From an uncultured Candidatus Saccharibacteria bacterium (GTDB lineage Bacteria > Patescibacteriota > Minisyncoccia > UBA10092): a stretch of DNA of 36,723 nt. Shown here piece by piece: positions 6,157 to 19,984 of the stretch. Every line of letters starts with the position of its first letter. Within the stretch, counting starts at the first letter, position 1. The notes under the pieces were generated by a model that saw nothing but the letters and a program-made list of their open reading frames with translations, was not told the origin of the DNA and made no database searches. The DNA is taken from positions 1-36,723 of the forward strand of contig CAZKLP010000004.1 in assembly GCA_964553885.1 (NCBI GenBank), given 5' to 3'. A program made the position numbers and the translations under genes.

Positions 6157-6807
6157 ATGTATCCTAAACCAATCCAAAATTTTATTGAAAAGTTTTCAAA
6201 ATTGCCAGGCGTTGGCCCGCGTCAGGCCGCCCGATTGGCTTTTTGGCTGCTTAATGGCCCGAAAGAAATTCGCCAAAATATAAAGCATGCGCTTGAGAGT
6301 TTGGATAAAGATGCTCGAACGTGCGAGTTATGCCATTATGTAATTGAAAATAATGGAAATAATCAATGCCATTTTTGCGACAATCCCACGCGCGACCACG
6401 CGATTATTTGCGTTGTTGAAAAAGAAACCGACTTGGCAACCATTGAAAAATCCGAAGCTTATAAGGGCCTATATCATGTTTTAGGCGGATTATTTTCGGC
6501 TCTGGATACCTCGGTGCCAAAAAATCTGAAAATACCGGAGCTCGTAAAAAGAATTGAAAATTCTCAGTCAAAGGCGGACCAGTTTCTGGCTGGAAAAAAA
6601 GGCGATAAAAAAATAGAAGAAATCATCTTGGCAATTTCTCCCACTCACGAAGGAGATTTAACCGCTTATTATTTGGAAAAATTATTAAAACCGCTAAAAG
6701 TCAAAATAACCCGCCTCGGGCGAGGCCTTCCTTACGGCTCCGACGTGGAATTCGCCGACGCCAAAACTTTATCGGGAGCTCTCGAAAATAGAAAAGAAAT
6801 AAAATAA
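6157..6807 (+). CDS. recR: Recombination protein RecR
   Basis: HhH motif LPGVGPRQAARLAF, Cys4 finger CELC..CHFC, Toprim segment ICVVEKETDL. Carries an extra segment NSQSKADQFLAGKKGDKK. Confidence 0.9.
   Translation: MYPKPIQNFIEKFSKLPGVGPRQAARLAFWLLNGPKEIRQNIKHALESLDKDARTCELCHYVIENNGNNQCHFCDNPTRDHAIICVVEKETDLATIEKSEAYKGLYHVLGGLFSALDTSVPKNLKIPELVKRIENSQSKADQFLAGKKGDKKIEEIILAISPTHEGDLTAYYLEKLLKPLKVKITRLGRGLPYGSDVEFADAKTLSGALENRKEIK
6561..6596 (+). repeat. GC-rich twin-hairpin mini-element, copy R (inside recR)
   Basis: ttctcagtcaaaggcggaccagtttctggctggaaa. It shares an exact 14-mer (caaaggcggaccag) and an exact 11-mer (tctggctggaa) with the ddl copy. Confidence 0.85.
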
Positions 6808-12355: not shown

Positions 12356-13530
12356 CGCTTAGCGCCGCCGACTTTTGAAATCAAATTGGAATCGTAACTG
12401 AAAGTCAGTTCTTGGCGTTTTTTGTGGCATTCGAAGCCAAGATTTATAAGCCGGTCTAACAATTCACTAAAACTAACCCCGGATTTTTCCCAGAGATAAA
12501 AAGATAAAGAACCCGGTAGAGTATTTATTTCAGTTATCCAAAAATCTTCGGTATCGAGACGAACCATAAAATCAACGCGGGCAATGCCCGCGGCATCAAT
12601 CGCCCAAAACGCTTTTTTTGCCGTTTCCTGAATTTTTTTAGTCAGTTCTTCGCTTATCGGCGCCGGCACAAATCGCGACAAACCAGCCATGCCTTTAATT
12701 TTGCCATCTTTCAAGTATTTATCTTCATAAGAAAGCATTTGTTCGCCTTTTATCGGCTGTTCGCAAACCGAGGCGATTAGTTCGTCGTTGCCCATCACCG
12801 AACAATTGATTTCAATAATTCCCTCTTTTCCCTCTTCAACAATAATCCGCCTGTCAAAACTGGAAGCGATTTCTATAGCGCTTTCCAGTTCTTTCAAGCC
12901 AGCGGCTTTGTTTATGGCAATACTTGAGCCTAAATTTGCCGGCTTAACAAAAACCGGATAACCAAGAGTTTCTTCAATATGTTTGATAATTCTGATCTTG
13001 TCGTTTTGCCATTCGTTTTTTAAAAACCAAACGTACTTCACAACCGGAATGTTATTATCTTTAAAAGCCGATTTTTGAATAATTTTATCCATGCCGACAG
13101 CCGAACCAGTAACGCCGCTTCCGATATAAGGAACGTCTGCCATTTCAAATATGCCTTGAATCGTCCCATCTTCACCATACGTGCCGTGAATAACGGGAAA
13201 ATAAATATCGGCTTTGATACTCTTAAAAAATTTAAACGCCGATTTCGGCGAAAGCGCTTTACTGCTTGGCGACGCTTCAAAAAAATATTCCTGCGCTTTT
13301 ATAGACGAATTCTTCCAGCCAGAGGCTGGTCCGCCTTTGGCGGAAAAACTCTCAATTTTCCCGAGCTTTTCATCAACCAGCCAGCGCCCTTTCTTATCTA
13401 TATAAACCGGAATAATATCATATTTATCGCGATTTATATTTTCAAAAACCTGCATCGCCGTCACAATAGAAACTTCATGCTCTACCGAGCGACTTCCGAA
13501 CACTATTGCGACTTTTAGTTTATTTGCCAT
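12352..13530 (-). CDS. ddl: D-alanine--D-alanine ligase
   Basis: KVAIVFGSRSVEHEVSIVTA, HGTYGEDGTIQG, ATP-grasp C-terminal half. Longer than usual, with an extra segment around SFSAKGGPASGWK. Confidence 0.92.
   Translation of the reverse strand: MANKLKVAIVFGSRSVEHEVSIVTAMQVFENINRDKYDIIPVYIDKKGRWLVDEKLGKIESFSAKGGPASGWKNSSIKAQEYFFEASPSSKALSPKSAFKFFKSIKADIYFPVIHGTYGEDGTIQGIFEMADVPYIGSGVTGSAVGMDKIIQKSAFKDNNIPVVKYVWFLKNEWQNDKIRIIKHIEETLGYPVFVKPANLGSSIAINKAAGLKELESAIEIASSFDRRIIVEEGKEGIIEINCSVMGNDELIASVCEQPIKGEQMLSYEDKYLKDGKIKGMAGLSRFVPAPISEELTKKIQETAKKAFWAIDAAGIARVDFMVRLDTEDFWITEINTLPGSLSFYLWEKSGVSFSELLDRLINLGFECHKKRQELTFSYDSNLISKVGGAKR
13312..13348 (-). repeat. GC-rich twin-hairpin mini-element, copy Y (inside ddl)
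   Basis: Minus strand reads tttttccgccaaaggcggaccagcctctggctggaag. It forms two perfect 6-bp hairpins, tccgcc-aaa-ggcgga and ccagcc-tct-ggctgg. Confidence 0.85.
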
Positions 13531-18349: not shown

Positions 18350-18730
18350 CTATTTTATTTCAACTGCCGCGCCGACGGTTTCGAGCTTCACTTTTAGCTC
18401 ATCGGCTTCGGCCTTAGGAACTCCGCTTTTAACAACTTGCGGCGCGCTGTCAACCAATTGCTTAGCCTCCTGAAGCCCCTTGCTGGTTACTTCGCGGATA
18501 ACTTTAATAACGGCAATTTTTTGCTCTCCAGCTTTTGTAAGAACCACATCAAACGCGGATTTTTCCTCCTTGTCCGCCGAAGCTTCAACGGAAGCGGAGG
18601 CCGGAGCAGCCATCATCGGCGCCGACGCCGAAACTCCGAATTTTTCTTCAAGCGCCTTAACTAATTCGGAAAGTTCAAGAACCGTAAGCTTTTCAACTTC
18701 CTCTATAATTTTATCAAATTTGTTAGACAT
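18350..18730 (-). CDS. rplL: 50S ribosomal protein L7/L12
   Basis: [26 protein letters not shown] ... Ala-rich hinge ... [19 protein letters not shown]. Confidence 0.95.
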
Positions 18731-18772
18731 AAATTTTATACTTTATATTGTTTATTTTCACGACCTTTTTAA

Positions 18773-18808
18773 TTTTTCAGCCATAGGCGGATCAGCCTCT
18801 GGCTGAAA
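18773..18808 (+). repeat. GC-rich twin-hairpin mini-element, copy X (rplJ 3' end and rplJ-rplL spacer)
   Basis: tttttcagccataggcggatcagcctctggctgaaa. It matches the ddl copy at 32 of 36 positions by hand alignment. It contains the last five codons and the TGA stop of rplJ, read on the opposite strand. Confidence 0.85.
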
Positions 18809-19340
18809 ATTTACCTTTTATCTGAGTTAACACATTAATTAAATCGCGCGTATTGCCGAAAAGTACATTAACCAGTTCTATAAGAGGAGAAGCAATTATG
18901 CTAACAACGCGGCCGAGCAAAATTTCACGAGACGGCAGTTTTGCTATCTCTATAATTTCTGTTTTGTCATGCCAATTAAAACCTATAAAGCCGCCTAAAA
19001 TTTTTAACGCTTCATTTCCGCCCTTGGCGGCAATTTTTGAAAACTTGAAAATAGAACTGGCCGCCGGCACCGGATCGCCATAGCTGAAAACAACCCCCAC
19101 TTGCGTTTTTAATTTATCAAGATCAATACCTTTATAATCACCTAATTTTAAAACACGGCTTATCAATGTTTTTTTAGAAACTTTATACTCGGCGCCTATT
19201 TGTTTAAGCAAACGGCGCAATTCCATTGTTTTAGCAACGGAGAGTTTATTAAAATCAACCAAAATCGCCGCCTTGGCCCGGCTAAACTTGTCGGTTAAAT
19301 CTTTCAAAATATTATCTTTTTTTTCTCGCGTAATGGCCAT
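18792..19340 (-). CDS. rplJ: 50S ribosomal protein L10
   Basis: MAITREKKDNILKDLTDKFSRAKAAILVDFNKLSVAKTMELRRLL. Start trimmed to the ATG at 19340. Confidence 0.92.
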   Translation of the reverse strand: MAITREKKDNILKDLTDKFSRAKAAILVDFNKLSVAKTMELRRLLKQIGAEYKVSKKTLISRVLKLGDYKGIDLDKLKTQVGVVFSYGDPVPAASSIFKFSKIAAKGGNEALKILGGFIGFNWHDKTEIIEIAKLPSREILLGRVVSIIASPLIELVNVLFGNTRDLINVLTQIKGKFSARG

Positions 19341-19443
19341 AAAAAAATACGAGCAAACGCCCGCAGACACAAAACACATAAATGTCTTGATAATCCTCGG
19401 AGGGGCTTCTGCCTTTTGTCTGACCGCCCTCTGTCTGCGGAAT
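19341..19443 (-). promoter_or_regulatory. ~100-nt structured 5' leader of rplJ (possible L10 autoregulatory leader)
   Basis: GC-rich hairpin-forming segment between the predicted promoter and the rplJ ATG. Not matched to a covariance model. Confidence 0.3.
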
Positions 19444-19449
19444 ACTTAA

Positions 19450-19478
19450 AGCATATTCTATATTAAAAATCTTGTCAA
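19450..19478 (-). promoter_or_regulatory. Promoter of the rplJ-rplL operon
   Basis: Minus strand reads TTGACA (19473-19478), a 17-nt spacer, TATGCT (19450-19455). Confidence 0.6.
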
Positions 19479-19488
19479 CAAAAATAAA

Positions 19489-19511
19489 ATAAGGGCTTTT
19501 ATTGCCCTTAT
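19489..19511 (-). terminator. Hairpin plus T-rich tail after the HNH-like gene
   Basis: ataagggc-N7-gcccttat, followed on the minus strand by tttatttttg. Confidence 0.6.
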
Positions 19512-19984
19512 TACTTGCCCTCCGTAGCTTTGTGCGAAGGAAGGTTATTTAACTTGAATTTTTTAACAGGAATGCCACCTTTAACATCGCTATTCAAAAC
19601 TTTTAAAAGCGCCGTAAGCTTGTCTGAATGCTCTTGCTTGTATTTGTCAGATAAATCCCATTCTTTTAAAATTTCCGCCATACCGTTAAAAGAAATATTG
19701 CCGCCAAATAAAATATCAAACAATTCTTTGTAAGCGGCATAAATATTGATGTTAAGAATGCCGTCATTACAAATTTCTTTTAAGAATTCTGATTGCTCTT
19801 CGGGAGTCCTGTTCCCAAAAATCGCGTGAAGCGCGTTATGAGATACAATAGAGGTATCCGGTAAAATCAGCCAATTGCCTAACAGTTTCCGTTTTCCCGC
19901 CCGATACGGCATAGGAACCCGGCTTTTAGGATAAACATGATGGCGATTACTATGTTTTTGGCCCAACGGATTTTCTAGACTCAA
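19511..19984 (-). CDS. Small HNH-like (beta-beta-alpha-Me) nuclease-family protein
   Basis: RHHVYPKSR ... N37 ... SHNALHAIFGN. TTG start 8 nt after GGAG, 13 nt downstream of the 782-aa ORF. Confidence 0.6.
   Translation of the reverse strand: MSLENPLGQKHSNRHHVYPKSRVPMPYRAGKRKLLGNWLILPDTSIVSHNALHAIFGNRTPEEQSEFLKEICNDGILNINIYAAYKELFDILFGGNISFNGMAEILKEWDLSDKYKQEHSDKLTALLKVLNSDVKGGIPVKKFKLNNLPSHKATEGK

What the first reader, a model, noticed from the sequence alone, without database searches (positions are those of the whole stretch)
18773..18808. Third copy of the element supplies the last codons and the TGA stop of rplJ, in opposite orientation
Seen: tttttcagccataggcggatcagcctctggctgaaa spans the rplJ-rplL spacer and the last 17 nt of rplJ. 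On the rplJ strand it reads ..AAA TTT TCA GCC AGA GGC TGA (KFSARG-stop). Relative to its host gene the element is inverted compared with the recR and ddl copies. Because of its quasi-palindromic nature it again yields an FSA-type peptide. Inference: the insertion replaced the native 3' end of rplJ. The hairpins may also act as an intercistronic RNA structure in the L10-L7/L12 operon.
Basis: partly seen in the sequence, partly recalled or inferred. Interest (0 to 1): 0.65.

Follow-up and report, generated by a model that had tools for sequence, protein, structure and literature searches.

The report
Mobile double hairpin ends ribosomal gene rplJ
A 30-base GC-rich "double-hairpin" repeat has inserted into the last codons of the essential ribosomal protein gene rplJ (L10) of an ultra-small groundwater bacterium, and its own TGA now ends the protein, which shows how a tiny selfish repeat can rewrite a gene's end at almost no cost.

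Summary
Window 18773-18808 is one of three in-window copies, and about 16 genome copies, of a palindromic double-hairpin repeat. Its consensus is TTT-TCCGCCnnnGGCGGA-TCCGCCnnnGGCGGA-AAA. On the rplJ strand the copy reads TTT TCA GCC AGA GGC TGA, so L10 ends ...KGKFSARG-stop.

None of 119 other L10 homologues ends this way. Most end in tails such as ...KRS, ...IKK, ...KLKNN/KLKNL or ...RSKK.

Removing the 30-nt core rejoins AAATTT|AAAATTAAAAA. An element-free relative has this 17-mer uninterrupted, in the same frame and at the same spot. Another lineage gives a clean filled/empty pair: exactly 30 nt, no target duplication, inserted at TTA|AAA.

The stop comes from the A-T stem variant (TCAGCC/GGCTGA). 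Copies of that variant are rarely found inside genes (9/43 against 54/82) and never in the Ser/Ala/Gly frame.

The element sits in the L10 tail in three separate lineages. Own rplJ also carries a 15-nt single hairpin at a second recurrent site. I found no terminator, no Rfam match and no RNA data to support a regulatory role. This genome has no candidate mobilising enzyme.

Verdict: a near-neutral selfish insertion. It belongs to a family that this scan has met often but that I did not find in the literature.

The parts
18777..18806 (-). 30-nt double-hairpin core. On the rplJ strand it reads TCAGCC-AGA-GGCTGA (hairpin 1, perfect) followed by TCCGCC-TAT-GGCTGA (hairpin 2, one C-T mismatch).
   Evidence: It matches the family pattern with 3 mismatches. 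The reversed-pattern control gave 0 hits in 12 genomes.
18774..18809 (.). 36-nt extended palindrome: the core plus TTT and AAA flanks. These flanks are partly conserved across the family and may be a target preference (TT|AA) rather than element sequence.
   Evidence: Flank logo of 125 sites: T at -2 in 80% and A at +2 in 80%, with nothing conserved beyond +/-3. In four metagenome runs, 30-80 unrelated contigs per run share only 18773-18812.
18792..18794 (-). The present TGA stop of rplJ. It is the last three bases of the 3' arm of hairpin 1 (GGC TGA).
   Evidence: TGA ends 60 of 320 long open frames in this genome, so it is a real stop codon here.
18777..18779 (-). Second in-frame TGA, in the 3' arm of hairpin 2. 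The G-to-T change that creates it breaks the hairpin 2 pairing, and the codon lies beyond the stop, so it is untranslated.
18795..19340 (-). rplJ coding sequence (L10, 182 aa). Residues 179-182 (SARG) are encoded by the element.
   Evidence: Pfam PF00466, E 9e-21. It aligns with T. maritima L10 (1ZAV) at residues 3-178 of 180.
18758..18769 (-). Relic of the family-typical L10 end, AAA AGG TCG TGA (KRS-stop). It now lies in the spacer, +1 out of frame with rplJ.
   Evidence: Seven family relatives carry AGG TCG at the end of L10, and in G009, G007 and G005 it reads AAA AGG TCG followed directly by the stop.
18350..18730 (-). rplL (L7/L12). It lies 61 nt downstream of the new stop.
   Evidence: Pfam PF00542 and PF16320.
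19017..19031 (-). Half element inside rplJ: a single 15-nt hairpin, GCC GCC AAG GGC GGA, read as AAKGG (L10 residues 103-107).
   Evidence: The nearest homologue has the empty site GTT|AAT (L146). L142 has the exact consensus TCCGCCAAAGGCGGA at this site. Eight homologues have the full 10-aa insert here.
19333..19458 (-). L10 leader upstream of rplJ (context only).
   Evidence: Rfam RF00557, 36.4 bits, E 6e-4, below the gathering score of 44.
6561..6596 (+). Copy inside recR. It is decayed and is read NSQSKADQFLAGK.
13312..13347 (-). Copy inside ddl, read FSAKGGPASGWK.

Best explanation
A copy of a dispersed 30-nt double-hairpin repeat was inserted between TTT and AAA in the A/T-rich last codons of rplJ. 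The repeat consists of two adjacent hairpins, each with a 6-bp stem and a 3-nt loop.

This copy belongs to the stem variant TCAGCC/GGCTGA. In the usual Ser-Ala-x-Gly-Gly frame that variant reads GGC TGA, so translation of L10 now stops in the middle of the element. The protein ends ...KGKF-SARG, and the former tail codons (AAA ATT AAA ..., including the old KRS-stop motif) have become part of the rplJ-rplL spacer.

Only the last few residues change, beyond the stretch that aligns with the solved L10 structure. The insertion is therefore effectively neutral and persists as selfish or fossil DNA.

Shown: the insertion, the source of the stop, the element-free states in relatives, and the recurrence at this site.

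Inferred: that the TGA arrived with the element, that the change is neutral, and how the element moves. For the last point I favour hairpin-guided, duplication-free insertion by an enzyme acting in trans that is not encoded in this assembly.
For: - Repeat family: about 16 copies in the 500-kb genome, 14-15 of them inside long open frames and read in only two of three frames, 10 as FSAKGGSAFGGK and 5 as FPPKADPPLAEK. Family relatives hold 0-28 copies, and the reversed-pattern control gave 0.
- Spread: more than 120 loci across CPR and other phyla.
- Tails: none of 119 L10 homologues ends in FSARG.
- Empty site: the own flanks rejoin to AAATTTAAAATTAAAAA, which is uninterrupted and in the same frame (KFKIK) in L142.
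- Filled/empty pair: L144 and L146 differ by exactly 30 nt, with no target duplication, and share a 31-nt word across the junction.
- Stem covariation: 82 C-G and 43 A-T pairs, 0 mismatched of 125, where 56 would be expected under independence. The TGA is therefore part of a compensated subfamily state.
- Selection against the stop-bearing variant: A-T copies are inside long ORFs in 9/43 cases against 54/82 for C-G copies (Fisher p 1.8e-6). None of the A-T copies is in the SAxGG frame, against 45 of the C-G copies.
- Position in the protein: the insertion point matches residue 178 of 180 of T. maritima L10.
- Reality of the junction: four independent assemblies reproduce it.
Against: - The stop used before the insertion is not settled. 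In the rejoined frame there is no stop until a TAA that overlaps the rplL start. The KRS-stop relic is +1 out of frame, so an extra one-base change in an A run must be assumed.
- The 17-nt junction word is low-complexity A/T sequence.
- No empty-site allele of this strain was seen. Contigs drop rare variants.
- Neutrality is inferred, not measured.
- No mobilising enzyme was identified. The only GIY-YIG domain in this genome is UvrC, and there is no Y1 transposase.
Confidence: 0.82

Rival explanations
1. The hairpin has been recruited as a functional RNA structure between rplJ and rplL. It might protect the rplJ message from 3' exonucleases, or it might tune re-initiation on rplL and so the L10:L12 ratio.
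For: - The junction RNA folds more stably than shuffled sequence: -31.1 kcal/mol, z = -3.7, with this copy forming one long 10+4-bp hairpin.
- GC-rich hairpins have landed at the rplJ-rplL junction repeatedly. This element occurs there in three lineages, and a different hairpin repeat occurs there in G001 and G008.
Against: - At least 116 of 119 homologues lack the element in the L10 tail.
- Relatives have 4-5-nt spacers or overlapping stop/start codons.
- The hairpin is followed by A, not U, and no terminator-like site was found on either strand.
- There is no Rfam match.
- The hairpin ends 43 nt upstream of the rplL AUG and does not cover it.
- Hairpin 2 of this copy has decayed.
- No RNA data are available.
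Confidence: 0.1
2. The element landed in frame and was first read through as FSARGGSAYGGK plus the native tail. The stop arose later by a GGA-to-TGA mutation, so it was not donated by the element.
For: - P0013 and P0047 carry read-through copies at the L10 tail, LSA(K/R)GGSALGGKN.
- The second TGA of this copy is clearly an uncompensated later G-to-T change.
Against: - The first TGA sits in a perfectly compensated stem (TCAGCC/GGCTGA). Making it after insertion would need two matched changes.
- The A-T state is a widespread subfamily: 43/125 sites, never mismatched. Near-identical copies exist in this genome (C1:11533) and in G009 and G010.
Confidence: 0.06
3. The sequence is not an insertion. 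It is either a native, selected Ser/Gly-rich peptide motif of these proteins or an assembly or adapter artefact.
For: The peptide SAKGGSAFGG recurs in many proteins.
Against: - The same DNA is read in two frames and also occurs between genes.
- Conservation is at the level of DNA base pairing.
- Filled and empty alleles differ by exactly 30 nt.
- Independent assemblies of four runs agree.
Confidence: 0.02

Closest known systems
Rickettsia palindromic elements (RPEs)
   Same: Both are dispersed palindromic repeats that insert in frame into unrelated housekeeping genes and are translated as extra peptide (PMC10969869).
   Different: RPEs are about 150 bp and are restricted to Rickettsia. This element has a 30-nt core, spans many phyla, has perfectly covarying mini-hairpins, makes no target duplication, and here truncates the host protein instead of being read through.
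Double-hairpin elements (DHEs) of fungal mitochondria (Paquin et al. 2000; Bullerwell et al. 2003, as summarised in PMC10085805)
   Same: Both are short GC-rich units in an AT-rich genome that can fold into two adjacent hairpins. Both are thought to be mobile, are near-identical across species, and are found in spacers and inside genes.
   Different: DHEs are mitochondrial, and in fission yeasts they lie mostly in spacers or rRNA genes. I did not test sequence relatedness. The bacterial element lies mostly inside protein-coding genes, in one preferred frame.
REP/REPIN repeats mobilised by RAYT (Y1/HUH) transposases, and IS200/IS605-type single-strand transposition
   Same: Both involve hairpin repeats arranged as inverted doublets. 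IS200/IS605 insertion leaves no target duplication and occurs next to a short target motif (from my own knowledge).
   Different: REPINs are extragenic and much longer, and the genome carries a RAYT gene. Here there is no PF01797 hit in this genome, and PF01797 hits do not correlate with copy number across 12 relatives (rho -0.20).
The 30-nt double-hairpin insertions noted by earlier agents of this scan (recR and ddl copies of this genome, and other CPR genomes)
   Same: Same element, same preferred frame, and the same seamless 30-nt insertion at T|A sites.
   Different: This copy is the stop-bearing A-T stem variant at the very end of a gene, so it truncates the protein. I could not reproduce the proposed link to small GIY-YIG nucleases for this genome or for this hairpin type within the family.

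Membership tests
CPR 30-nt double-hairpin insertion element (scan-internal family; not found in the literature searched) | Two adjacent hairpins of 6-bp stem and 3-nt loop, 30 nt in all | tested here: met
   TCAGCC-AGA-GGCTGA / TCCGCC-TAT-GGCTGA. Hairpin 1 pairs 6/6 and hairpin 2 pairs 5/6.
CPR 30-nt double-hairpin insertion element (scan-internal family; not found in the literature searched) | Stems covary within each mini-hairpin | tested here: met
   125 sites gave 82 C-G and 43 A-T pairs and 0 mismatched. The own-genome copies C2:10722, C4:13315 and C5:17023 keep each mini-hairpin but not the long palindrome.
CPR 30-nt double-hairpin insertion element (scan-internal family; not found in the literature searched) | Clean 30-nt insertion at T|A with no target-site duplication | tested here: met
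   L144 and L146 differ by exactly 30 nt at TTA|AAA. The own flanks rejoin to a 17-mer that is intact in L142.
CPR 30-nt double-hairpin insertion element (scan-internal family; not found in the literature searched) | Dispersed, multi-copy, variable between close relatives | tested here: met
   Copy counts are 11 in the own genome, 1, 0 and 3 in the same genus, and 0-28 across the family. The control gave 0.
Rickettsia palindromic elements | About 100-150 bp palindromic unit encoding a conserved peptide, in Rickettsia | tested here: not met
   The core is 30 nt and the host is a groundwater Parcubacteria lineage whose homologues are labelled Azambacteria. RPE size is from PMC10969869.
MITE (classical) | Terminal inverted repeats plus a target-site duplication | tested here: not met
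   The filled/empty pair shows no duplication. I also found no convincing direct repeat flanking the own copy.
REP/REPIN-RAYT system | A cognate Y1 (RAYT) transposase gene in the genome, with repeats lying outside genes | tested here: not met
   The own genome has no PF01797 hit, and 14-15 of 16 copies lie inside open frames.
Intrinsic (Rho-independent) terminator | GC-rich hairpin followed directly by a U tract | tested here: not met
   The hairpin is followed by AAAAAUUAAAAA on the rplJ strand, and the scan finds no site at 18774-18809 on either strand.
GIY-YIG/tRNA cassette-linked hairpins (proposal of earlier agents) | A small stand-alone GIY-YIG nuclease gene beside a tRNA gene, with the hairpin adjacent | tested here: inconclusive
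   - Relatives do have 0-9 small GIY-YIG genes. Six of 10 loci have a tRNA gene, and one has a tmRNA gene, within about 400 nt of the nuclease gene. One locus has a GC-rich palindrome between a tRNA fragment and the nuclease gene.
- The own genome has only UvrC.
- No TCCGCC-type double hairpin lies within 1.5 kb of 11 such loci.
- Copy numbers do not correlate (rho -0.36).
Mitochondrial double-hairpin elements | GC-rich unit of about 35 bp that folds into two hairpins, in organelle DNA | not tested
   The form is alike. No DHE sequences were compared, and the host compartment differs.

The most novel reading that the evidence does not exclude
The 30-nt double hairpin (with a 15-nt single-hairpin form) would be the smallest known bacterial mobile DNA. 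It would insert seamlessly at TT|AA-like sites through its hairpins, without target duplication.

Its stem variants would then have different fates. The C-G form survives as a ten-residue Ser/Ala/Gly loop inside essential genes. The A-T form is a portable stop codon that is purged from gene bodies but can re-cut protein C-termini, as in L10 here.

The two recurrent sites in rplJ would then mark true insertion hot spots and not only tolerated positions.
Probability: 0.3. Interest if true: 0.8.

Novelty: new variant of a known kind. Interest (0 to 1): 0.55.

Why it matters
This is a clean natural example of a repeat only ten codons long remodelling the end of an essential, highly expressed ribosomal protein gene.

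It also yields tests that apply to the whole family. The stems covary perfectly. Insertion is seamless. The stop-bearing variant is excluded from gene bodies, which is direct evidence that translation filters where copies survive.

For annotators of CPR genomes, such elements explain odd C-termini, 5- or 10-residue Ser/Ala/Gly inserts and GC-rich spikes inside AT-rich genes.

The mechanism of movement is still unknown. If it proves to be a new one, the family would be of wide interest.

Tried and rejected
1. My first reading was a 43-nt insertion (36-nt element plus ATTAAAA) between GGT AAA and AGG TCG, based on G009-type relatives. I dropped it when L142 showed the extra A/T bases uninterrupted and in frame. 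A clean 30-nt insertion is simpler.
2. I looked for a target-site duplication around the own copy, using TAAA(A) and 13-nt candidates. None was convincing, and the L144/L146 pair shows none.
3. A terminator or attenuator role is rejected. There is no U tract and no scan hit.
4. Rfam gave no family at the element. The AfaR hit at 22.9 bits against a threshold of 100 is chance.
5. UGA read as Gly (code 25) would make the copy read FSARGGSAYGGK. I rejected this because TGA ends 60 of 320 long frames, large genes are intact under table 11, and A-T copies avoid that frame.
6. A GIY-YIG or Y1 transposase as the resident driver is not supported in this genome or across the family.
7. I searched for RNA-seq runs and for empty-site alleles. 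There are no RNA runs and no joints in contigs.
8. Literature searches for a description of this element in CPR bacteria found none. The searches were not exhaustive.

Full report
**What is there**

Window 18773-18808 reads tttttcagccataggcggatcagcctctggctgaaa, exactly as quoted. The minus-strand ORF that ends at 18792 is rplJ. Its product begins MAITREKK at the ATG at 19340, is 182 aa long and matches Pfam Ribosomal_L10 (E 9e-21). rplL follows at 18730-18350. A sub-threshold L10 leader lies upstream at 19333-19458.

On the rplJ strand the last codons are AAA TTT TCA GCC AGA GGC TGA. The stop therefore lies at + strand 18792-18794, in the centre of the repeat. With up to three mismatches the 36-mer occurs once in the window and in none of 100 shuffles. 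It pairs with two other copies, in recR (6561-6598) and ddl (13310-13347).

**The repeat family**

The window is contig C4 of a 500-kb, 24-contig, 39.6% GC genome. That genome holds about 16 copies of the element. The consensus is TTT-TCCGCCnnnGGCGGA-TCCGCCnnnGGCGGA-AAA, two adjacent hairpins with 6-bp stems and 3-nt loops.

Fourteen or fifteen copies lie inside long open frames.
- Pfam confirms the host genes glmS, rpsE, gltX, rpoD, fpg, a uracil-DNA glycosylase, a transketolase subunit and rplJ.
- I recognised gyrA, ftsK, valS, recR and ddl from their sequence motifs.

The copies are read in only two of three frames: ten as FSAKGGSAFGGK-like, five as FPPKADPPLAEK-like, and none in the Arg-rich frame.

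Among 12 genomes of the same family the core pattern occurs 0-28 times, with 11 in the own genome and 1, 0 and 3 in the same genus. A reversed-pattern control gave 0 hits. A capped scan of species-representative genomes returned more than 120 loci. These come from many CPR lineages and from MAGs labelled Omnitrophota, Ignavibacteria, Kiritimatiellae, Verrucomicrobiota and others.

In those loci only the 30-nt core plus two to three flanking bases are conserved: T at -2 and A at +2 in 80% of sites. In four groundwater metagenome runs, 30-80 unrelated contigs per run share just 18773-18812 with the window.

**Which fold is maintained**

In 125 sites, position 3 of hairpin 1 and its partner are C-G in 82 cases and A-T in 43. 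They are never mismatched, although 56 mismatches would be expected if the two positions varied independently. The A-T state breaks the long whole-element palindrome but keeps the mini-hairpin. The two small hairpins are therefore the conserved structure.

The rplJ copy is atypical. Hairpin 1 (TCAGCC/GGCTGA) is perfect, but hairpin 2 (TCCGCC/GGCTGA) has one mismatch. As RNA, this copy is predicted to form a single long hairpin.

**Is it an insertion that replaced the end of rplJ? Yes.**

- *Tails of homologues.* Of 119 other L10 homologues at 64-82% identity, none ends in FSARG. Tails vary...K(x)KRS(S) is the commonest, and others end ...IKK...KLKNN/KLKNL...(I/L)RSKK or ...KLKK. Family relatives fetched from whole genomes show the DNA AAA AGG TCG TAA/TAG, followed by spacers from about 18 nt up to roughly 100 nt. 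Two same-genus genomes that end ...IKK have spacers of 4-5 nt.
- *Rejoined flanks.* Removing the 30-nt core from the own sequence joins AAATTT to AAAATTAAAAA. This 17-mer is present uninterrupted, at the same place and in the same frame (KFKIK), in an element-free relative, L142.
- *A second lineage.* Another lineage supplies a clean filled/empty pair. L144 has ...TTA[TCCGCCAAAGGCGGATCCGCCTTGGGCGGA]AAA AAT TAA, giving the tail NNLKLSAKGGSALGGKN. L146 has ...TTA AAA AAT TTA TGA. The two differ by exactly 30 nt, have no target duplication, and share a 31-nt word across the junction.
- *The old end.* The family-typical AAA AGG TCG TGA survives at 18758-18769, 3' of the element, but is +1 out of frame.

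The stop used before the insertion therefore remains uncertain. Either one A was gained in the A run after that stretch stopped being translated, or the old tail ran on to the TAA that overlaps the rplL start. Either way the old stop lay downstream of the insertion point, and the element's TGA now pre-empts it.

My first reading, a 43-nt insertion, was wrong and was corrected by L142.

**Where the stop comes from**

In the frame used, the A-T stem variant reads GGC TGA where the common variant reads GGC GGA. Because the A-T pair is compensated, widespread (43/125 sites) and present in near-identical copies elsewhere (C1:11533 in this genome, and in G009 and G010), the stop most likely arrived with the element.

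Selection against this variant inside genes is visible. A-T copies lie inside long ORFs in 9 of 43 cases, against 54 of 82 for C-G copies (Fisher p 1.8e-6). None of the A-T copies is in the SAxGG frame, against 45 of the C-G copies. TGA is a genuine stop in this genome: it ends 60 of 320 long frames, and large genes are intact under table 11.

Stop donation by the element is rare. In only 2 of 125 sites elsewhere does a long ORF end inside the element, both times through a loop triplet.

**Effect on L10**

Own L10 aligns with Thermotoga maritima L10 (1ZAV) over residues 3-178 of 180, and the insertion point is residue 178. Only the last few residues are exchanged, so I infer little or no functional cost.

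**Recurrence**

Three of 120 L10 sequences carry the element in the tail: the own sequence, P0013 and P0047. On a maximum-likelihood tree they need three changes, and at least two are forced by well-supported branches. Each is closer to element-free sequences than to the others.

A second site, KFSK(I/V)|NEALK, is empty in 101 homologues. It holds a full 10-aa SA(R/K)GGSAFGG insert in 8 and a 5-aa single-hairpin insert in 11. This pattern needs ten changes on the tree, at least six of them forced.

Own rplJ carries the single-hairpin form at 19017-19031 (GCC GCC AAG GGC GGA, read AAKGG). L142 has the exact consensus TCCGCCAAAGGCGGA at that site, and L146 has the empty site GTT|AAT. The 15-nt unit may be left after slippage between the two halves of the element, which are near-identical direct repeats. 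That is inference.

**Function and mechanism**

I found no support for a regulatory RNA role.
- The hairpin is followed by A, not U, and no terminator-like site was found on either strand.
- There is no Rfam family at the element.
- The hairpin ends 43 nt upstream of the rplL AUG.
- Most relatives lack the element.
- No RNA runs are available.

One observation leaves a small chance of benefit. Other GC-rich hairpins also sit in this spacer in G001 and G008.

The way the element moves is unresolved. Earlier agents tied the family to small GIY-YIG nuclease genes beside tRNA genes. Such genes do exist in relatives. Six of ten loci have a tRNA gene, and one has a tmRNA gene, within about 400 nt of the nuclease gene. 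One locus has a GC-rich palindrome between a tRNA fragment and the nuclease gene. Against the proposed link:
- the own genome has only UvrC;
- none of 11 such loci has this double hairpin within 1.5 kb;
- copy numbers do not correlate (rho -0.36).

Y1 transposase hits do not correlate either, and the own genome has none. The copies here are probably fossils, or they are moved by something not encoded in this assembly, which is 94% complete.

**Comparison with known systems**

The behaviour is that of Rickettsia palindromic elements, which insert in frame into housekeeping genes (PMC10969869), but at one fifth of the size and without any lineage restriction. The form matches the GC-rich double-hairpin elements of fungal mitochondria (PMC10085805). 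The lack of target duplication and the hairpin ends recall IS200/IS605 and REPIN biology (my own knowledge), but no cognate enzyme was found. My literature searches found no description of this bacterial element.

**Verdict**

The observation and the main interpretation are correct. The copy is a near-neutral selfish insertion of the stop-bearing variant of a family that this scan has met repeatedly. Its specific value is the evidence it gives on seamless insertion, on selection by reading frame and on recurrent target sites.

Noticed in passing
window 19017-19031 (minus strand, inside rplJ): A single 15-nt hairpin (GCC GCC AAG GGC GGA, read AAKGG) is a half copy of the same element at a second recurrent site of L10. 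Homologues at that site have nothing (101), five extra residues (11) or the full ten (8).
   Followed up: yes
window 19522-19540 (minus strand, last codons of the small gene 19511-19984); also L006 about 2040-2070, L004 about 1470-1500 and L005 about 2140-2175: A second small repeat, CCTTCGCATAAAGCT(T/A)CGG, is closed by a variable 5-6-bp stem that changes in a compensating way (CCGCC/GGCGG, CCTCC/GGAGG, CCTTC/GAAGG). It has 0-5 copies per family genome. It lies in the rplJ-rplL spacer of G001 and G008 and upstream of the L10 leader in G009 and in the own genome.
   Followed up: partly
protein P0047 (L10 homologue), residues about 115-125: This homologue has another 10-residue insert (LAHRSLGEGG) between ILGGFI and GFDW. 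Its closest relative P0020 lacks it. It is probably a different hairpin element in the same gene.
   Followed up: no
L147 (G002:C10), about 1700-1790 on the minus strand: A small GIY-YIG gene (106-aa open frame) lies between a 5' fragment of tRNA-Leu plus a perfect GC palindrome (CCTGCCTGCCGGCAGGCAGG) and a complete tRNA-Leu. This is the nuclease-in-tRNA layout that earlier agents described, but with a different hairpin.
   Followed up: partly
window 18733-18761 (minus strand): A weak promoter-like match (GTGAAA-17-TAAAAT, 9 of 12) lies in the spacer between the element and rplL. It overlaps the relic of the old rplJ end.
   Followed up: no
own genome C1:11530-11565: The closest relative of the rplJ copy (2 differences in the core) lies 4 nt after the stop of the upstream gene and just before the likely true start of a transketolase subunit gene. 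This stop-bearing variant therefore sits between genes here.
   Followed up: partly
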